DNA of 10,645 bases, from assembly GCA_049512935.1 (NCBI GenBank), contig JBEKWR010000035.1, positions 1 to 10,645 on the forward strand, read 5' to 3'. This document shows, piece after piece, positions 5,900 to 9,903 of this stretch; the first letter of the stretch is position 1, and the number at the start of each line of letters is the position of its first letter. Both the position numbers and the translations under genes were made by a program. Source of the stretch: Candidatus Bathyarchaeia archaeon. Its GTDB lineage: Archaea > Thermoproteota > Bathyarchaeia > Bathyarchaeales > Bathycorpusculaceae. Under the pieces are notes generated by a model that did no database searches, was not told the DNA's origin, and saw only the letters and a list, made by a program, of their open reading frames with translations.

Positions 5900-6358
5900 T
5901 TGAAAACCAAAAAAGCACCCATTATCGCAATAGCGGCGTTAGTTTCAATAGGAATCGTTCTCGCCGTCCTATCCCAAGGTTTACTCGCTTCCCAACAAGC
6001 CATTCCAAGCAGCGGGACAGTCGGCGTATCTAGCACAATAAACATTGGCGTTTATACAGATGCGGCTACAACGAATAATTGCACAAGTATCAACTGGGGC
6101 ACATTAACACCAGGCACTTCCGTAAGCCAAACCGTGTACATCAAAAATACCGGCAACACGGCTGAAACGCTTAGCATGACCACCTCAAGCTGGAATCCTC
6201 CAACAGCCACTTCATATTTAAGTTTAACATGGAATGACGCAGGCACTGTTTTAGCTGCAGGCTCAGTTACACCTGCAACCCTTACCTTAACTGTTGCAGC
6301 AAACGCCGGAAGCTTAAACAGCTTCAGCTTTGACATAGTCATATCTGGATCAGCCTAA
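5900..6358 (+). CDS. Secreted beta-rich protein, TasA/CalY-like signatures (paralog 1 of 3)
   Basis: Basic N-terminus plus hydrophobic signal. SSGTV, INWG.LTPG...VYIKNTG, W.P..A..YL...WN..GT.L..G and a terminal I.I.G.A strand; colinear with 8711 and 9433 products. ORF is confident; family call is inference. Confidence 0.8.
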   Translation: MKTKKAPIIAIAALVSIGIVLAVLSQGLLASQQAIPSSGTVGVSSTINIGVYTDAATTNNCTSINWGTLTPGTSVSQTVYIKNTGNTAETLSMTTSSWNPPTATSYLSLTWNDAGTVLAAGSVTPATLTLTVAANAGSLNSFSFDIVISGSA

Positions 6359-6384
6359 CCCCTAAAACTGGAGGTTCACAATGC

Positions 6385-6397
6385 TTTTTTTTGTTTT
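6385..6397 (+). terminator. Oligo-T terminator
   Basis: T8-G-T4, 27 nt after the stop at 6358. Confidence 0.55.
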
Positions 6398-6500
6398 CAG
6401 AGCCTATCAAATCCTGCCCATAATAGAAAAGGTTATGTCTATTTCTAGAATAACAGTTAAATAATTCGGGGTCCCGCGTGAGTGCAGAAGAGGGATTGAT

Positions 6501-6944
6501 TTGCAGGCAACCGAAGAATCGTCATTAAAGTTTCAGATTCATTCTGGGAGTTACAGTGAAAAGATTGAAGCGCAAAAAGAACTAGTTGAATCGCTTAAAG
6601 CTCAATGGAAGCTTTTATGGAGCGAACGCTACAACGACAAGGTACGAGCCGAAGATGTCTCAGCCAACAACTACAATTCCTTAAGCATAGAACGAGGCAC
6701 AATCATCTATGCCAACAGGGATTTTAAGGCGCCAACTTTCAAAGAAATCCTTGAGCAGCATATGATTGCCAACCCAGATCGTTTCGTTCAACCTGACCCT
6801 CAGACTGGCGGCTGGAAAAAATTCGTAAAAACCCAAGTCAACCATCGCACGCAGGAAAACACGCGCAATTCACAATCGGCTCCCAATAAGGCAGCGAATC
6901 AACAGCCTAGAAAATGCGGACGCGGTTGGCTCCACAACTTTTAG
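6501..6944 (+). CDS. Hypothetical soluble protein
   Basis: 147-aa ORF, TTG start with GAGGGA RBS, followed by T8 (6960-6967). No recognisable motif, signal peptide or TM. Confidence 0.7.
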   Translation: MQATEESSLKFQIHSGSYSEKIEAQKELVESLKAQWKLLWSERYNDKVRAEDVSANNYNSLSIERGTIIYANRDFKAPTFKEILEQHMIANPDRFVQPDPQTGGWKKFVKTQVNHRTQENTRNSQSAPNKAANQQPRKCGRGWLHNF

Positions 6945-7526
6945 AGTTTCCGACTTACGTTTTTTTTGACCAACTTCTACGCCGATTGAAAAGCATGAGG
7001 CTTGTCATCTGACTTTTCGTTGGACGGCGGCATTTTAGTGTGGAAGATCCAGCGAATTTGTTCTTTGCGTTTTGGGTTGCTTTTTGTGGCAGAGCTTTAA
7101 AACTAGAAGCGATAGGGAACAAAAAATCACGTCAAAGACGAAAAAGAACGGTTCCCATGTCCCTTGAATAGTAAGGGCACAGGAAGTGGCACTTTAAACA
7201 AATCATCGATTATGCCTTGTTCAGTGGACAGTTTTGTTCGATTCTTTCTCTGAAAAACTCATCTAAAAGAAATACATACATGTTCAAATTAAAACAAAAG
7301 GACACACCAACAATGGAAAAATCTGTCAAAACGGGCTCGTTCAAGATAGCCATGCGCTCCATGTGTCGCTTTTCAGGGTGTCTGAATGACATGTGGAAAT
7401 TGTAGAAGCCGAAGGATTATGGATGGTTCGTTTTTCCTTAGGAAGCGCTTGGATGTAAGAAGGCTTTTATTGGGAGTAAACATTCCTGCAGATAATTTAA
7501 CTGATAAAAGAGAAGGGGGATATAAC

Positions 7527-8525
7527 ATGAAAAACCGTACAGTATTAGTAATGCTGCTTGTGGCATTAGTTTTCGCTATGGTTAGCACAAGCGTCTACGC
7601 CCAAACACTTCAAGTTCAAATAGGAGTTCCAAGTAACTCAAACGGCGACTTAGGCATCACTTCAGGCAGCTACTGGGTCGGACAGTTCCCAATAACAATA
7701 AACCCTAACACCCCACAATCCGCAACAGGCGAAGCCTACTGCATGACTTCTTACGGCACAGTCTACGAAGGAACATCATACCCAGCAACCGAAGTACCAG
7801 TTCCAAACACGCCGACATGGCAACAGATAGCCTACATCTTAAGCTGGAATACACCCACATCCGACAGTGAAGCGGCAATTGATCAAGTTGCGATCTGGAT
7901 GCTCTTAGGACAAAATCCGCCTTACGCTGACTTCAGCTTAGACTCTTCAATCACGGGTCCAGCAGCCAGTTTGGTAAGTTCGTTGAGTGCAGGCGGCGGC
8001 ATGAATGTAGCTCGGACTGGCGACCAATTGCAGTGGATTGCGCCTTTCGTTGGTACTGAAGGTAGCACAAACATTACGTCAGCCGACGCTGGTAAACCTG
8101 TAACTTTCCAAGTGCAACTTGGAGATTCCTCAGGTCACGCACTGGCAATCCAAAACGTGCAAATCGACTTTACCGCTTTGGGCTCAACAACTCCAGAATA
8201 TACCGACAGCAACGGAATAGCTACCTACGCATACGTAGTACCCCAAAGTGCACAGGCTGGCTCAACAATCACTGTCACTGCCTCAACTCAAAGCGTGTGG
8301 CCAGTAGAATACTTAGACCTTACAACTGCTTCGCCTGGAACACAAAACTTGATTGGAGTAGGCCCAACTCTTGGCTTGACCACATCATATAACATACAAG
8401 TCGCAGGGTCGATATTCGTGTTGCCTGAATCAGCCTACGGAGCGCTCAGCGCTTTAACCGCATGCGCAGCAAGCTTCTTGATCTATCACAGACTCAAGCC
8501 ACAAACGCGTAAACGAAGCCTCTAA
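7527..8525 (+). CDS. Surface-anchored putative thioester-domain (TED/TQXA-like) adhesin with Ig-like segment and PEF-CTERM-like tail
   Basis: ATG 7527 after GGGGGA RBS gives 332 aa beginning with a Sec signal (..SVYA/QT). AYC at 70-72, IAYIL helix, DQVAIW at 119-124, Ig-like VTFQVQL.D..G...TDSNGIAT.....TITVTAS, TQNLI at 272-276, FVLPES + hydrophobic helix + RLKPQTRKR tail. Confidence 0.78.
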   Translation: MKNRTVLVMLLVALVFAMVSTSVYAQTLQVQIGVPSNSNGDLGITSGSYWVGQFPITINPNTPQSATGEAYCMTSYGTVYEGTSYPATEVPVPNTPTWQQIAYILSWNTPTSDSEAAIDQVAIWMLLGQNPPYADFSLDSSITGPAASLVSSLSAGGGMNVARTGDQLQWIAPFVGTEGSTNITSADAGKPVTFQVQLGDSSGHALAIQNVQIDFTALGSTTPEYTDSNGIATYAYVVPQSAQAGSTITVTASTQSVWPVEYLDLTTASPGTQNLIGVGPTLGLTTSYNIQVAGSIFVLPESAYGALSALTACAASFLIYHRLKPQTRKRSL

Positions 8526-8530
8526 ATCCA

Positions 8531-8558
8531 TTTTTTTTATTTTAGGTTTCACTTTTTA
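8531..8558 (+). terminator. Oligo-T terminator
   Basis: T8-A-T4 and further T tracts beginning 6 nt after the stop at 8525. Confidence 0.55.
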
Positions 8559-8663
8559 TATATGAAAAAACCCGGGAAGCGCTCGCTATCAGCAAGTATT
8601 CAATAAACTGGGGCTTTAAGCTTTGATAGAACAATGTATTGTATCTTTTAATCCCAAAAAAGG

Positions 8664-9034
8664 GCAAAAATAACTGATTAGTAAAGTCAAGTTTCTGATT
8701 CATGTTTGGTTTATCCAGTGCCTGTGATTGTGATGGCGTTGCTGAAGGTTGTGAAGCCCTTTATGGTGGAGGCTACGGTCAGCGTTATTTTTGCAGCTGT
8801 GGGTTTTCCAGCTGTGAGTTTGGTTCCCTGCTGGTTCCAGCTTACTGTCAAATAGGTGCTGGCCGTTGGCGGGCTCCAGCTGCTTGCAGCTAAGCTGAGG
8901 GTTATCGTGGCGGTTCCAGTGTTCTTAACGTAAACGGTTTGTGCGGCTGTTTTTCCTGCGGCTACGGATCCCCAGTTTATCAAAGTTAATTTGTGAGTGC
9001 AGGCGCTATCAGAGTAGACTCCGATGTTAGGAGA
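8664..9034. repeat. Tandem gene duplication, copy A (partner 9383..9756)
   Basis: 8697-8785 matches 9419-9507 at 87/89 nt (offset 722). Similarity extends into the non-coding 3' flank (GCAAAAATAAC at 8664 and 9383) and decays toward the gene 5' ends. Confidence 0.92.
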
Positions 9035-9160
9035 GGCTTTGACCGTTGCGCAAGCAGTGAGGTTTTGGCTTGAATTATCGACAAGTAATATTGTAATCGC
9101 TAGCGCCAGTACCACTGCAGTTAAAACAGCTAATGTTTTGAAGGGTTTAGCGTTTACCAT
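8711..9160 (-). CDS. Secreted or membrane-tethered beta-rich protein, TasA/CalY-like signatures (paralog 2 of 3, lysine-enriched)
   Basis: ATG at 9160 preferred, because the GTG at 9175 lies within the GAGGTGA RBS. N-terminal hydrophobic helix; 77/107 identical to the 9433 product over the core by manual alignment. Confidence 0.82.
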   Translation of the reverse strand: MVNAKPFKTLAVLTAVVLALAITILLVDNSSQNLTACATVKASPNIGVYSDSACTHKLTLINWGSVAAGKTAAQTVYVKNTGTATITLSLAASSWSPPTASTYLTVSWNQQGTKLTAGKPTAAKITLTVASTIKGFTTFSNAITITGTG

Positions 9161-9382
9161 TTTTGTTTTTGTCACCTCTACTTGGGAACAGAAAAGGTAA
9201 AATTCTCAGAAAACTCCACCGGAAAATGCCACTCTGCTCCGCGACGTCAGGCCCAAACTTCATGGAATTCTACGATTTTCGAAAAATATCGCATGTTTAT
9301 TCGTCCATATTAATCTTTGTTTAACCATGCATTTAAAGAAATCACTTCCCGACATAAACGGAACAGAAAAACGAGTCCATTT

Positions 9383-9756
9383 GCAAAAATAACGGGGTAT
9401 TAAAGTTTCAAGTTTTTGGATTCATGTTTGGTTTATCCAGTGCCTGTGATTGTGATGGTGTTGCTGAAGGTTGTGAAGCCCGTTATGGTGGAGGCTACGG
9501 TCAGCGTGATTGTTGCAGCTACTGACTGCCCTGCTGTGAGTTGGGTTCCCTGCTGGTTCCAGCTTACAGTTAAGTAGGTGCCTGCTGACGAGGGACTCCA
9601 GTTGCTTGCAGCTAAGTTCAGGGTCATTGTGCCTGTGCCTGTGTTCTTGATGTATGCAGTTAGATTTTTGGAGCTTCCGGCTGCTATTGTTCCCCAGTTT
9701 AGTGATGTCATGTTGACGGTGCATGCGCTGTCTGAGAAGACTCCGACGTTAGGCGA
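9383..9756. repeat. Tandem gene duplication, copy B (partner 8664..9034)
   Basis: Direct repeat of copy A, including the 40-nt exact match 9419-9458 = 8697-8736 spanning the stop codon. Confidence 0.92.
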
Positions 9757-9903
9757 CGTTGTGATTGTTCCAGAGGAAGAAACGTTTTGGTTGACGTTTA
9801 TAGCTGGGAATGCTGCCGGGATTACTGCAAAGGTTAGGGCGAGTGCGACTGCGACTGCTATTAAGGCAACAATTGCCAGTTTTGATTTTTTGCGGATTAT
9901 CAT
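9433..9903 (-). CDS. Secreted beta-rich protein, TasA/CalY-like signatures (paralog 3 of 3, likely major subunit)
   Basis: Strong AGGAGG RBS, RKKSK + hydrophobic signal, AAF-x11-SGTI N-terminal segment, NWG.I.AG...AYIKNTG, Thr/Ser-rich, ends on a beta strand with no anchor. Confidence 0.85.
   Translation of the reverse strand: MIIRKKSKLAIVALIAVAVALALTFAVIPAAFPAINVNQNVSSSGTITTSPNVGVFSDSACTVNMTSLNWGTIAAGSSKNLTAYIKNTGTGTMTLNLAASNWSPSSAGTYLTVSWNQQGTQLTAGQSVAATITLTVASTITGFTTFSNTITITGTG

What the first reader, a model, noticed from the sequence alone, without database searches (positions are those of the whole stretch)
5900..9903. Three TasA-like secreted paralogs around a TED adhesin: candidate archaeal biofilm fibre/adhesion system
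Seen: three colinear ~150-aa Thr/Ser-rich proteins with a signal sequence, no C-terminal anchor and shared NWG, Y[IV]KNTG, W.P, WN..GT.L..G motifs; they flank the TED-like gene. Recalled B. subtilis TasA LKPGDKLTKDFQFENNGS aligns without gaps to LTPGTSVSQTVYIKNTGN (5900 product). Established: TasA and the archaeal bundling pilin AbpA of Pyrobaculum polymerise by N-terminal donor-strand exchange. Inference: these genes build an extracellular fibre, with the TED protein as covalent attachment factor. They are not one operon (mixed strands, separate terminators), so the functional link is unproven.
Basis: partly seen in the sequence, partly recalled or inferred. Interest (0 to 1): 0.82.

Follow-up and report, generated by a model that had tools for sequence, protein, structure and literature searches.

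The report
Secreted Ig-like paralogs beside thioester adhesin
Three small exported immunoglobulin-like proteins of an uncultured Bathyarchaeia archaeon belong to a large unnamed family that is not related to the bacterial biofilm protein TasA, while the gene between them does look like a covalent "thioester" adhesin of a kind so far described in Gram-positive bacteria.

Summary
Three paralogs (5900-6358 +, 8711-9175 -, 9433-9903 -; 42-61% identical) flank a 332-aa surface-protein gene.

The TasA reading does not hold. No Peptidase_M73 hit appears at E<=1. hhalign against genuine Bathyarchaeial TasA-family proteins gives 21.6% probability over 28 columns, a short PG...N.G stretch. The AF2 model (pLDDT 87.6) is a complete seven-strand PapD/ASH/MSP-like Ig sandwich with one extra N-terminal strand.

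The family is large: 3,527 clusters, and 69 of 121 genomes of the order. It has a conserved signal-peptidase-I-type site, a conserved N-terminal tail, one conserved unpaired Cys and no anchor.

The middle gene is supported as a thioester-domain adhesin. Its fold matches solved TEDs (Foldseek 1.2e-7; Z 9.5-11.2). All three TED motifs are present, with invariant Cys and Gln. It ends in an archaeosortase-type tail.

The link between the two gene kinds is loose: 63 of 69 family-bearing genomes lack the TED gene.

Fibre formation by strand donation is open, because the complex predictor was unavailable. One hint favours it: a beta-helix protein in a relative carries the same tail without the Ig core.

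Verdict: a new secreted Ig family plus an archaeal TED. It is not a TasA system, and assembly is unproven.

The parts
5900..6358 (+). Paralog P1 (152 aa): signal peptide with S25-Q26-G27|L28 at the family's conserved -3/-1 site, N-terminal tail ...AIPSSGTVGV..., one Ig-like domain. The family Cys is shifted four columns (profile column 59 instead of 55).
   Evidence: (E 6.4e-52); one 285-nt contig of an RNA library is identical to 5899-6183
6501..6944 (+). 147-aa ORF with no signal peptide and no family. It is the most conserved neighbour of the paralog family (14 of 45 loci, variable orientation).
   Evidence: no family; Atlas: nothing usable
7527..8525 (+). Thioester-domain (TED) surface protein, 332 aa: Sec signal peptide, TED, MG4/Big_1-like Ig domain (about aa 164-301), C-terminal sorting signal.
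   Evidence: pLDDT 91.3; start at 7527
7740..7742 (+). Codon of the invariant Cys in A-Y-C-M-T ([YFL]C-phi-zeta motif), the candidate thioester Cys.
   Evidence: (34 of 34 sequences)
7884..7898 (+). Q-V-A-I-W of the helical TQxx-phi-W motif (here D-Q-V-A-I-W), inside predicted helix 114-127.
8343..8345 (+). [quoted passage not shown]
   Evidence: the TED structural alignments reach model residue 284-287
8421..8522 (+). C-terminal L-P-E-S-A-Y-G + hydrophobic helix + basic tail: a putative archaeosortase sorting signal matched by no curated model.
   Evidence: helix 304-324; no NCBIfam hit; an exosortase/archaeosortase gene lies next to the TED orthologs in L005 and L006
8711..9175 (-). Paralog P2 (149 aa from ATG 9160; 154 aa from GTG 9175). 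It deviates from the family cleavage motif (I..L at -3/-1); an A-L-A|I-T site lies five residues upstream.
   Evidence: (E 3.8e-60)
9433..9903 (-). Paralog P3 (156 aa), with T24-F25-A26|V27 at the conserved site, a six-residue insert, then the tail ...NVSSSGTITTSPNVGVFSDSAC...
   Evidence: (E 7.0e-63)
8664..9790 (.). Tandem duplication that made P2 and P3 (period 719-722 nt; 84% and 71% identical blocks, including the 3' flank with its T-rich tract).
   Evidence: D1, D2, D5

Best explanation
The three genes encode members of a large, unnamed, Bathyarchaeia-centred family of small exported proteins. It is not the TasA/camelysin family.

Each protein has four parts: a Sec-type signal peptide ending in a conserved [T/A/V]-x-[A/G/S] signal-peptidase-I site; a conserved tail of about 16 residues (...N-V-S-Q-N-V-S-S-S-G-T-I-T-T); one complete seven-strand PapD/ASH/MSP-like Ig sandwich with a conserved unpaired Cys in the loop G-V-Y-S-D-S-A-C-T; and no membrane or cell-wall anchor.

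My reading is that the processed 12-13-kDa modules are non-catalytic building blocks of the cell surface or matrix. I think they are held there by their N-terminal tail, which adds as a beta-strand to a like subunit (giving chains) or to another envelope partner.

Shown: paralogy, family size and range, fold class, absence of TasA features, the conserved cleavage-site pattern, and the tail also occurring on a non-family protein. Inferred: cleavage, secretion, and above all strand-mediated attachment.

The gene between the paralogs is a separate, archaeosortase-type anchored thioester-domain adhesin that would bind a target covalently through a Cys-Gln thioester. It shares a surface-gene neighbourhood with the paralogs in some genomes but is not a required partner.
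For: Family and range:
- 136 relatives in the word-indexed search.
- 3,527 clusters at E<=1e-3 and 408 at E<=1e-30 in the exhaustive profile search.
- 43 of 44 genome loci are titled Bathyarchaeia/-ota.
- 69 of 121 genomes of the order carry it, with 1-8 copies each.

Fold:
- AF2 gives pLDDT 87.6, and >=93 for every block from residue 41 on.
- The all-against-all structure search aligns residues 49-154 to complete ASH/MSP/PapD-type domains (Z 7.3-8.6, 87-94 residues) and residues 32-154 to Cox11 (Z 8.8, 111 residues).
- Sub-threshold Pfam/NCBIfam hits are to the same superfamily: PF22544, ASH, Cep192_D4, choice-of-anchor D.

Export:
- Over 204 family members, profile position 27 is A/G/S in 186 of 202 and position 25 is T/A/V/S in 189 of 202, directly after the hydrophobic run.
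- There is no C-terminal anchor.

Tail as a separable element:
- Positions 35-49 are as conserved as the core (G39 in 186 of 202; I/V41 in 193 of 203).
- The first part of the tail has lower model confidence (pLDDT 54-68 up to residue 40).
- A 541-aa right-handed beta-helix protein of a relative (L052) carries the tail without the Ig core. It scores 18.5 bits, E 1.1e-4 against 12,779 sequences, higher than two of the window's own paralogs.
- Eleven relatives in 45 loci have the core without the tail.

Pilin resemblance: the only two Foldseek matches at E<=1e-3 are pilins (Aap pilus 8q30, a FimA variant), but with TM only 0.21-0.37.

Surface context: flippase, GT2, GT4, DUF1616 and archaeosortase genes recur near family genes.

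TED:
- Foldseek gives TIE/TED chains at 1.2e-7 to 3e-7.
- VIA gives 5a0g Z 11.2 (143 aligned), Cpa Z 10.4 (149 aligned), SfbI-TED Z 9.5 (148 aligned).
- C73, Q121, W125 and Q274 are invariant in 34 of 34 sequences and fit the three motifs defined in PMC4450167 (passages read).
Against: - Strand-mediated attachment therefore rests on indirect hints.
- The Ig fold is complete: the last strand, 143-153, is present. From residue 41 on, the N-terminal strand is modelled in cis with pLDDT 96. This is not the incomplete fold of classical donor-strand pilins.
- The same domain, including positions 32-43 of the tail, occurs inside multi-domain proteins: two tandem copies in P0174, plus fusions to dockerin, Big_7, PEGA and Golvesin_C. 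That fits an ordinary self-contained module.
- The tail on non-family proteins is rare. There is one robust case in 121 genomes. The GHL15 and GH5 candidates are not significant with the tail-only model. There are none in this genome and none in the 45 loci. A sorting or processing tag would explain these cases equally well.
- About a fifth of members carry N-glycosylation sequons inside the tail (columns 30 and 34: 40 and 45 of 204). A glycan there would hinder strand insertion.
- P2 lacks the consensus cleavage residues.
- All fold matches are in the range the tool itself calls common (Z about 8).
Confidence: 0.4

Rival explanations
1. Ordinary secreted or surface-associated single Ig modules that do not polymerise. 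The N-terminal segment is simply the first strand of the domain and/or an export, processing or glycosylation tag. Function would be binding or shielding at the envelope, as for stand-alone CARDB or choice-of-anchor D-like domains.
For: The fold is a complete seven-strand sandwich and the tail is modelled in cis. The domain is used as a module in multi-domain surface proteins with dockerin, Big_7, PEGA and S-layer-like parts. The conserved -3/-1 site and the sequons next to it fit a processing region. Tail-bearing non-family proteins are rare.
Against: An anchorless 12-kDa protein needs some means of retention. The tail is as conserved as the core. The tail occurs on a beta-helix protein that lacks the Ig core. 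The core occurs without the tail in 11 relatives, so the tail is not just a structural strand of the domain.
Confidence: 0.33
2. N-terminally membrane-anchored Ig proteins: the hydrophobic segment is an uncleaved signal anchor that holds one Ig domain on a short glycosylated stalk at the membrane, as in Cox11-like or FlaF/FlaG-like architectures.
For: The uncharged run has a median of 23 residues, which is long enough to span a membrane. AF2 models it as a helix, residues 13-30. The best VIA match, Cox11, is such a protein (Z 8.8). JGI names 8 of the 120 listed relatives 'archaellum component FlaG (FlaF/FlaG family)'. P2 lacks the small -3/-1 residues.
Against: A/G/S at -1 in 186 of 202 and T/A/V/S at -3 in 189 of 202, right at the end of the hydrophobic run, is the pattern of a cleavage site, not of a transmembrane helix end. 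The same N-terminal region also heads long secreted enzymes.
Confidence: 0.15
3. Archaeal type IV pilin-like subunits: a class III signal peptide is cut by the prepilin peptidase, and the hydrophobic helix forms the filament core.
For: The top Foldseek hit is the S. acidocaldarius Aap pilus subunit (E 2.7e-4). The genome has a Peptidase_A24 gene on contig C18. The architecture is helix plus Ig.
Against: A FlaFind-like [KRDE][GA][ALIFQMVED][ILMVTAS]x3 motif is found in only 10 of 184 members, at scattered positions, and in none of the window's three. The residue after the conserved Lys is not G/A. The TM-score of the Aap match is 0.21. No ATPase or platform genes are among the conserved neighbours.
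Confidence: 0.03
4. True TasA/camelysin (Peptidase_M73) family fibre subunits.
For: The short ungapped PG...N.G similarity is reproduced by hhalign. The language-model search lists DUF1102 (0.88) and Peptidase_M73 (0.84) clusters among the nearest named ones, below the tool's own 0.9 bar.
Against: No PF12389 or PF06510 hit at E<=1. hhalign probability is 21.6% over 28 of about 150 columns. Genuine PF12389 genes exist in 3 of 301 genomes of the phylum and look different: 216-291 aa, with an A-Y-F-S-D-T-E...T-A-G-T-L-D-L N-terminus. No signal-peptidase gene is in the window.
Confidence: 0.02

Closest known systems
PapD-like / ASH / MSP Ig-like superfamily, including HYDIN/VesB-like Ig (PF22544) and the choice-of-anchor D domain (NF012200)
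   Same: Seven-strand sandwich. Residues 49-154 align to complete domains of this type (Z 7.3-8.6). The (W/F)G...G......Y.KN.G...L pattern is shared. The best sequence hits are to these models.
   Different: Every hit is below the curated cut-off (best 24.4 vs 45 bits, and 21.1 vs 25.5). Here the domain is mostly a stand-alone 150-aa exported protein with its own conserved N-terminal tail and a conserved single Cys. It is largely confined to Bathyarchaeia.
Chaperone-free archaeal donor-strand filaments: Sulfolobus 'threads' (Saci_0406; PMC9715654, passages read)
   Same: Sec/SPI-type signal. A conserved segment follows directly after the cleavage site. Both are small beta-sandwich subunits with N-glycosylation sequons, several paralogs in a cluster, and independence from the class III peptidase pathway (here inferred from the missing motif).
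   Different: There is no detectable sequence or listed structural match. The thread's conserved N-terminal Asp and YYY motif are absent. The Ig fold here is complete. No filament has been seen or modelled.
Bacterial chaperone-usher pilins (FimA, CfaB)
   Same: These are the weak best Foldseek matches (E 5e-4 to 9e-3, TM 0.34-0.43). Both have an N-terminal extension with alternating hydrophobic residues and a conserved Gly (the P4-glycine rule is recalled, not tested).
   Different: The last strand is present here, so there is no open groove in the model. No chaperone or usher is present. The organism is an archaeon with a single membrane.
TasA / camelysin (Peptidase_M73) and archaeal AbpA bundling pili (PMC9674648 and PMC9245690: search listing only)
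   Same: Exported, anchorless, beta-rich, with a short PG...N.G strand motif.
   Different: No family match. The protein is about 80 residues shorter. The N-terminal motif differs. No SipW-type peptidase is nearby. Genuine TasA-family genes exist elsewhere in Bathyarchaeia and are distinct.
Thioester-domain adhesins / TIE proteins of Gram-positive bacteria (Cpa, SfbI, BaTIE; PMC4450167, passages read)
   Same: This comparison is for the gene at 7527-8525. It has the TED fold and all three sequence motifs with invariant Cys and Gln. The TED sits N-terminally behind a signal peptide, is followed by an Ig-like stalk domain, and there is a C-terminal sorting signal.
   Different: The host is an archaeon. 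The tail is a PES...-type archaeosortase-like signal instead of LPXTG. There is a single stalk domain. No curated TED model is hit at E<=1. The motif reads D-Q-x-A-I-W instead of T-Q-x-A-I-W.

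Membership tests
TasA / camelysin (Pfam PF12389 Peptidase_M73) | Match to the family model | tested here: not met
   PF12389 is not listed at E<=1 for any of the three paralogs. There are 0 matches in the whole genome, while the B. subtilis control rings.
TasA / camelysin (Pfam PF12389 Peptidase_M73) | SipW-type N-terminus (G-A-G-x-x-A-Y-F-S-D-T-E...T-A-G-T-L-D-L), as seen in the three Bathyarchaeial PF12389 proteins fetched here | tested here: not met
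   Searches show the motif in the true members. The paralog family has ...T-x-A|A-I-N-V-S-Q-N-V-S-S-S-G-T-I-T-T... instead.
TasA / camelysin (Pfam PF12389 Peptidase_M73) | Profile-profile similarity over the domain | tested here: not met
   hhalign A2 vs A4: probability 21.6%, 28 aligned columns, 14% identity.
TasA / camelysin (Pfam PF12389 Peptidase_M73) | TasA-type jelly-roll fold | tested here: inconclusive
   No TasA, AbpA or CanA chain is among the 50 rows shown by Foldseek or by the all-against-all search. An unlisted family is not excluded.
TasA / camelysin (Pfam PF12389 Peptidase_M73) | Polymerisation by N-terminal donor-strand exchange | not testable with these tools
TasA / camelysin (Pfam PF12389 Peptidase_M73) | Dedicated signal peptidase (SipW) or TapA-like gene in the locus | tested here: not met
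   None of the window's ORFs scanned against Pfam is a signal peptidase. The contig is only 10.6 kb.
PapD-like / ASH / MSP Ig superfamily (PF22544, PF15780, NF012200) | Seven-strand Ig-like sandwich superposable on members | tested here: met
   Residues 49-154 align to hydin, CEP192 ASH, VAP MSP and pilus-chaperone N-domains at Z 7.3-8.6, rmsd 2.1-3.1, 87-94 residues. The tool rates this Z range as common.
PapD-like / ASH / MSP Ig superfamily (PF22544, PF15780, NF012200) | Score above a curated family cut-off | tested here: not met
   Best scores: NF012200 24.4 bits vs 45; PF22544 21.1 vs 25.5; PF22073 21.8 vs 35.5.
Donor-strand-complemented pilins (chaperone-usher type, archaeal threads) | Incomplete Ig fold lacking its last strand (open groove) | tested here: not met
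   The model has the C-terminal strand 143-153 and eight strands in all. A monomer model can, however, self-complement.
Donor-strand-complemented pilins (chaperone-usher type, archaeal threads) | Conserved N-terminal extension directly after an SPI cleavage site | tested here: met
   The -3/-1 pattern is present in 189 and 186 of 202 members, and the tail is conserved (G39 in 186 of 202; I/V41 in 193 of 203).
Donor-strand-complemented pilins (chaperone-usher type, archaeal threads) | Head-to-tail polymer with the strand inserted in trans | not testable with these tools
   (tool unavailable).
Archaeal type IV pilins | Class III signal peptide motif ([KR][GA] before the hydrophobic stretch) | tested here: not met
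   10 of 184 members, at scattered positions; 0 of the window's 3.
Archaeal type IV pilins | Neighbouring assembly ATPase or platform genes | tested here: not met
   None are among the neighbour families found in >=4 of 45 loci.
Thioester domain (TED) adhesins: gene 7527-8525 | TED fold (beta-sandwich with central three-helix region) | tested here: met
   Foldseek: 6fwv 1.2e-7, 6fwy 2.2e-7, 6fx6, 4bug. VIA: 5a0g Z 11.2 (143 of 175 residues), 2xic Z 10.4 (149), 5a0l Z 9.5 (148). Helices at 97-108, 114-127 and 141-158.
Thioester domain (TED) adhesins: gene 7527-8525 | [YFL]C-phi-zeta motif with fully conserved Cys | tested here: met
   A-Y-C-M-T; Cys is invariant in 34 of 34 sequences. Motif definition from PMC4450167.
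Thioester domain (TED) adhesins: gene 7527-8525 | [quoted passage not shown] | tested here: met
   T-Q-N-L-I; Q274 is invariant in 34 of 34, next to strand 276-278. Which Gln actually forms the bond is inferred.
Thioester domain (TED) adhesins: gene 7527-8525 | Helical TQxx-phi-W motif | tested here: met
   D-Q-V-A-I-W in helix 114-127; Q121, A123 and W125 are invariant. Asp replaces Thr. The paper says no residue of this motif is fully conserved.
Thioester domain (TED) adhesins: gene 7527-8525 | Match to a curated TED/TQXA model | tested here: not met
   No TED family is listed at E<=1 in Pfam or NCBIfam.
Thioester domain (TED) adhesins: gene 7527-8525 | An actual Cys-Gln thioester bond (-17 Da) | not testable with these tools
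   This needs intact-mass spectrometry of the recombinant domain and of a Cys-to-Ala variant.

The most novel reading that the evidence does not exclude
The small Ig proteins are subunits of a chaperone-free, strand-complemented surface fibre or docking scaffold peculiar to Bathyarchaeia. The conserved N-terminal tail would be a portable 'plug' that joins subunits to each other and also tethers tail-bearing enzymes, such as the beta-helix protein of L052, to the cell surface. The conserved lone Cys and the neighbouring thioester adhesin would add covalent attachment. That would be a new archaeal way of building and decorating an extracellular matrix in a globally abundant, essentially uncultured lineage.
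Probability: 0.2. Interest if true: 0.8.

Novelty: new variant of a known kind. Interest (0 to 1): 0.5.

Why it matters
Bathyarchaeia are among the most abundant archaea in sediments, peat and soils, and almost nothing is known about their cell surface.

This report does three things.
- It removes a tempting but wrong label. These proteins are not TasA homologs, and genuine TasA-family genes exist elsewhere in the lineage.
- It defines a very large unnamed family of exported Ig-like proteins. The family has a conserved processing site, a tail that also occurs without the domain, and a lone Cys.
- It supports a thioester-domain adhesin with an archaeosortase-type anchor in an archaeon.

In the papers I could search, TEDs are described only from Gram-positive bacteria. 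PMC4450167 says its PSI-BLAST hits were exclusively Gram-positive (passage). The abstract of PMC13685950, seen in the listing, speaks of broad distribution among Gram-positive bacteria. Searches found no archaeal TED report.

If the tail proves to be a trans-acting strand, the family would give a directly testable model for matrix or fibre assembly in these archaea.

Tried and rejected
- **TasA, AbpA, CanA by fold.** None appears among the rows shown by Foldseek or VIA. This is an absence only, not an exclusion.
- **Type IV pilin reading.** Rejected on the missing class III motif.
- **Intramolecular isopeptide (CLIPPER/DUF11-like).** This was prompted by JGI's TIGR01451 labels and a weak DUF7507 hit. 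No Lys/Asn-Asp column pair covaries with K80. Dropped.
- **Apparent sub-family lacking the last strand.** Some profile matches end at position 134-137. The four I fetched have about 20 further residues and are simply divergent.
- **Copper-chaperone idea.** It came from the Cox11 match. There is no conserved His or Met and only one Cys. Not pursued.
- **Function of the conserved 147-aa neighbour.** No Pfam or NCBIfam hit and nothing usable in the Atlas.
- **Tail-only search of this genome.** Only the three paralogs score below E 0.1 among 12,775 frames.
- **Tail-only search of the 45 loci.** Zero ORFs have the tail without the core.
- **GHL15 (L053) and GH5 (L054) candidates.** They matched mainly through their signal peptides and are not significant with the tail-only model.
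- **Expression.** One RNA-library run held 5% of the sampled words. Laying it gave a single identical 285-nt contig over 5899-6183 and nothing over the other genes. Contigs cannot rank expression, and the library may contain DNA.
- **Other scans.** Rfam gave no match in the window. Bacterial-type terminator counts are not above chance.
- **Earlier notes.** Look-ups by the P2 sequence and by place in this genome returned nothing.

Full report
**What is in the window**

The window is a whole 10,645-bp contig (C35) of a 2.30-Mb genome that is 93% complete. Its relatives are all Bathyarchaeia MAGs. The contents, left to right:
- kdpA (partial), kdpB and kdpC
- three stand-alone Lrp/AsnC ligand-binding-domain genes
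- a response-regulator receiver gene
- P1, 5900-6358 +
- a 147-aa ORF, 6501-6944 +
- a surface-protein gene, 7527-8525 +
- P2, 8711-9175 -
- P3, 9433-9903 -
- the end of a gene with no Pfam hit

Rfam finds nothing.

**Observation**

The three ORFs are real paralogs. P1 is 43% and 42% identical to P2 and P3, and P2 is 61% identical to P3. P2 and P3 arose by a tandem duplication of 722 nt that includes the 3' flank.

All three have an N-terminal basic and hydrophobic segment and no C-terminal anchor. Ser+Thr make up 31-34% of the mature parts. A profile of the family finds exactly these three copies in the genome (E 6e-52 to 7e-63).

**Is it TasA-like? No**

- Pfam at E<=1 lists neither Peptidase_M73 nor DUF1102 for any paralog.
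- PF12389 finds nothing in the whole genome, while the B. subtilis control rings.
- PF12389 does find genuine members in 3 of 301 genomes of the phylum, two of them in the same order. These proteins are 216-291 aa (the longest runs off its contig) and start with the canonical ...G-A-G-x-x-A-Y-F-S-D-T-E...T-A-G-T-L-D-L.
- A profile-profile comparison of the paralog family (44 sequences) with those three gives 21.6% probability over 28 columns.

I therefore read that similarity as a short strand-turn-strand motif, not as evidence of TasA homology. It overlaps the region covered by the sub-threshold CARDB, ASH, HYDIN-like and choice-of-anchor D hits.

The language-model search does put DUF1102 (0.88) and Peptidase_M73 (0.84) clusters among the nearest named ones. 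Both are under the tool's own 0.9 bar and behind PF22544.

**What the paralogs are**

*Size and range of the family.* The family is large.
- 136 relatives in the word-indexed search.
- 3,527 clusters at E<=1e-3, 2,222 at E<=1e-10 and 408 at E<=1e-30 in the exhaustive profile search.
- 43 of 44 genome loci are from Bathyarchaeia/-ota MAGs; one is labelled Promethearchaeati.
- 69 of 121 genomes sampled from the order carry it, with up to 8 matches per genome.
- Of the best 150 representatives, 97 are <=170 aa, 42 are 171-260 aa and 11 are longer.

*Fold.* AF2 with the family alignment gives pLDDT 87.6. Values are 54-68 up to residue 40 and >=93 from residue 41 on. The model has a helix at 13-30 and strands at 38-48, 51-54, 65-72, 76-85, 91-101, 109-113, 125-134 and 143-153.

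Foldseek finds only two matches at E<=1e-3: the Aap pilus subunit 8q30 (TM 0.21) and a FimA variant (TM 0.37). More FimA and CfaB chains and ASH/MSP domains follow.

The all-against-all search aligns residues 49-154 to complete ASH, MSP, hydin and pilus-chaperone N-terminal domains (Z 7.3-8.6). It aligns residues 32-154 to Cox11 (Z 8.8, 111 residues). The tool warns that this Z range is common.

So the fold class is a complete PapD/ASH/MSP-like Ig sandwich preceded by one extra strand. Every curated sequence model stays below its cut-off.

*The N-terminus.* Over 204 members aligned to the profile:
- The hydrophobic run ends in [T/A/V/S] (189 of 202), then x, then [A/G/S] (186 of 202). This is the -3/-1 rule of signal peptidase I.
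- P1 (S-Q-G|L) and P3 (T-F-A|V) fit. P2 has I and L at those positions and may instead be cut at A-L-A|I-T, or not cut at all.
- What follows is conserved as strongly as the core: ...N-V-S-Q-N-[VI]-S-S-S-G-T-I-T-T-(S)-P-N-I-G-V-Y-S-D-S-A-C-T. G39 is present in 186 of 202 and I/V41 in 193 of 203.

A class III (prepilin) motif is found in only 10 of 184 members and in none of the window's three, although the genome has a Peptidase_A24 gene. This rules out the type IV pilin reading that the Aap match and JGI's 'FlaG/FlaF' labels (8 of 120 listed) might suggest.

One Cys, at profile position 55, is conserved in 192 of 204 members, and 147 of 204 have exactly one Cys in the mature part. I have no explanation for this lone Cys.

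*Is the tail more than the first strand of the domain?* Several observations bear on this.
- The domain is used as a module: two tandem copies (P0174), two copies plus dockerin (P0179, P0192), an N-terminal copy followed by fn3/Big_7 or PEGA domains (P0236, P0296), and a C-terminal copy after a Golvesin_C domain (P0306). Internal copies begin at profile positions 32-43, so they keep the tail. I judge this ambiguous: it fits a cis strand, but a fused tail could equally pair with the preceding domain.
- Eleven ORFs in the 45 loci have the core without the canonical tail. Several are fragments, and four lie directly downstream of a canonical gene.

An earlier AI note on a relative (e1-5475346) claimed that enzymes carry the same N-terminal strand. 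I tested that claim:
- In this genome, no other frame among 12,775 matches the tail below E 0.1.
- In the 45 loci there is none.
- A 58-position N-terminal model run over 121 genomes of the order gave three matches in long frames without a family core.
- With a 19-position tail-only model, only one of those three is significant. It is a 541-aa right-handed beta-helix protein (PF13229, 3e-18) that scores 18.5 bits (E 1.1e-4), above P2 (14.5) and P1 (10.1).
- The GHL15 and GH5 proteins match mainly through their signal peptides.

So the tail can occur without the domain, but rarely.

**Mechanism**

*Shown:* the proteins are exported-type, anchorless, single Ig modules of a new family.

*Inferred:*
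- They are cut by signal peptidase I.
- Some are N-glycosylated. Members carry a mean of 2.5 sequons, and sequon positions recur at columns 30, 34, 58 and 95.
- They act outside the cell as non-catalytic structural or adhesive modules.

I give 0.40 to the reading that the tail attaches them, by strand addition, to like subunits or to another envelope partner. I give 0.33 to plain non-polymerising modules whose tail is a cis strand or a processing tag. I give 0.15 to uncleaved membrane anchoring, and the remainder to pilin or TasA membership.

The decisive test, a multimer prediction with controls, could not be run. I do not take that as decisive, because monomer models can fold a swappable strand back in cis.

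**The gene in the middle**

The family alignment (34 sequences drawn from 52 relatives) has these invariant residues: C73 in A-Y-C-[LM], Q121/A123/W125 in D-Q-V-A-I-W, and Q274 in T-Q-N-L-I. Numbering follows the 333-residue translation from 7524; the real start is the ATG at 7527.

These correspond to the three TED motifs defined by Walden et al.: [YFL]C-phi-zeta, the helical TQxx-phi-W, and phi-Q-zeta-phi-phi (PMC4450167, passages read).

Structural evidence:
- AF2 gives pLDDT 91.3, with three central helices flanked by strands.
- Foldseek's four best hits are TIE/TED chains at 1.2e-7 to 3.0e-7.
- VIA aligns model residues 25-287 to solved TEDs: 5a0g Z 11.2, Cpa Z 10.4, SfbI Z 9.5.
- Residues 164-301 resemble MG4, invasin and Big_1 Ig domains (Z about 11).

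The C-terminus (L-P-E-S-A-Y-G, helix 304-324, basic tail) looks like an archaeosortase signal but matches no curated model. In the two closest loci (L005, L006), an exosortase/archaeosortase-family gene lies next to the TED ortholog (TIGR04178, 62 bits against a cut-off of 23). This genome has a 27%-identical homolog on contig C6.

Four long relatives replace the anchor by InlB-B-repeat domains (PF18998).

Curated TED models are not hit, and the bond itself is untested.

I found no report of an archaeal TED. The eLife paper states that its hits were exclusively Gram-positive. A 2025 survey of isopeptide domains mentions TED only as a co-occurring or inserted domain, in the passages I read.

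**Are the two linked?**

Only loosely.
- TED homologs occur in 3 of 45 loci: the window and its two closest relatives.
- They occur in 6 of 121 genomes of the order, against 69 of 121 for the paralog family, so 63 family-bearing genomes lack a TED.
- All 6 TED genomes have the family. In 4 of them (G000, G061, G282, G314) a TED gene lies within about 5 kb of a family gene. That is 4 of 10 TED copies in all. G061 and G282 are the same genus.
- This genome has two further TED paralogs on other contigs, with no family gene nearby.

The most conserved neighbour of the family is instead the 147-aa ORF at 6501-6944, present in 14 of 45 loci in variable orientation. Its function is unknown.

A YdjM-like membrane protein sits within 600 bp in 6 loci, divergently transcribed in five of them and convergent in L025, and within 10 kb in 10 loci. 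It is not in this window. Flippase, GT2, GT4, DUF1616 and wHTH genes recur in 4-6 loci, which fits a cell-envelope neighbourhood.

**Comparison with known systems, and novelty**

The paralogs work like small secreted Ig modules of surface proteins. By fold they belong to the PapD/ASH/MSP superfamily, but they fall in no curated family.

They share several traits with archaeal threads: an SPI signal, a conserved segment after the cut, paralog clusters, and sequons (PMC9715654, passages read). The thread-specific residues are absent, and so is any evidence of a filament.

The TED is a new variant of a known kind: a different domain of life and a different anchor.

Overall the finding is interesting but much less so than a 'TasA-like fibre system'. 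I score it 0.5. The boldest reading not excluded is a strand-complemented fibre or scaffold with tail-tagged enzymes, to which I give 0.2.

**Limits**

- There are no model coordinates, so I could not inspect which strand the tail pairs with, nor the Cys-Gln distance in the TED.
- The PDB fold tables show only 50 rows.
- Kin genomes are not independent.
- The P4-glycine rule of chaperone-usher pilins is recalled from memory.
- The papers on TasA, AbpA, cannulae and haloarchaeal bundling pili were seen only as search listings.

Noticed in passing
window 6501-6944 (+): A 147-aa ORF with no signal peptide and no family is the most conserved neighbour of the paralog family. It is present in 14 of 45 loci at 46-65% identity, 0.01-4 kb from a family gene, in every orientation. 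Its function is unknown; it could be a regulator.
   Followed up: partly
family profile position 55 (P2 Cys59, window about 8999-9001; P3 likewise; P1 shifted to column 59): A single unpaired Cys in the most conserved loop, G-V-Y-S-D-S-A-C-T, is kept in 192 of 204 members, and 147 of 204 have no other Cys in the mature part. No explanation was found: it is not a lipobox, there is no partner Cys, and there are no His or Met ligands.
   Followed up: partly
L052 (G344:C2), ORF 239-1864 (-): A 541-aa right-handed beta-helix protein (PF13229) in a relative starts with the same signal peptide and tail (...T-T-G-Q-L-N-T-T-K-N-I-P-S-N-G-T-I-A-A-S) as the small Ig proteins but lacks their core. The tail-only model scores 18.5 bits, E 1.1e-4.
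   Followed up: partly
L005 13526-15637 (-), L006 13355-14749 (-); own genome C6:136513-138315: An exosortase/archaeosortase-family gene (TIGR04178 signature, 62 bits) lies beside the TED orthologs of the two closest relatives. This genome has only a 27%-identical homolog on another contig. It suggests a new 'PES...' sorting signal and sortase pair.
   Followed up: partly
own genome C11:56621-57610 and C2:137776-138774: Two further full-length paralogs of the TED adhesin are in the same genome, away from any small Ig gene.
   Followed up: no
L030, L033, L027, L025, L043, L013 (relatives): A YdjM-family membrane protein (PF04307) lies 15-560 bp from a family gene in 6 loci, transcribed divergently in five of them and convergent in L025, and within 10 kb in 10 loci. 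It is absent from this window.
   Followed up: partly
L048, L049, L050 (genomes G294, G292, G141): Genuine TasA/Peptidase_M73-family genes with the canonical A-Y-F-S-D-T-E...T-A-G-T-L-D-L N-terminus occur in 3 of 301 genomes of the phylum, two of them in the same order as this genome.
   Followed up: partly
window 8664-9790: P2 and P3 with their 3' flanks are a tandem duplication (period 719-722 nt; blocks 84% and 71% identical). The duplicated flank carries the T-rich tract downstream of each gene.
   Followed up: yes
window 5899-6183: One 285-nt contig of a metatranscriptome library is identical to the first 284 nt of P1 and starts one base before its TTG start. No contig covers the other genes. 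Contigs cannot show a transcript start, and the library may hold DNA.
   Followed up: partly
window 3863-4156 (+), 4266-4502 (-), 4920-5183 (+): Three small stand-alone Lrp/AsnC ligand-binding (RAM) domain genes with no DNA-binding domain lie between the kdpABC genes and a receiver-only response regulator at 5195-5650.
   Followed up: no
P0155, P0156, P0159, P0163 (relatives of the TED protein): Long forms (523-540 aa) of the TED family replace the C-terminal membrane anchor with InlB-B-repeat domains (PF18998) and a C-terminal segment with a D-L-N-G-D-G-K-V-N-type motif that looks dockerin-like by eye.
   Followed up: no
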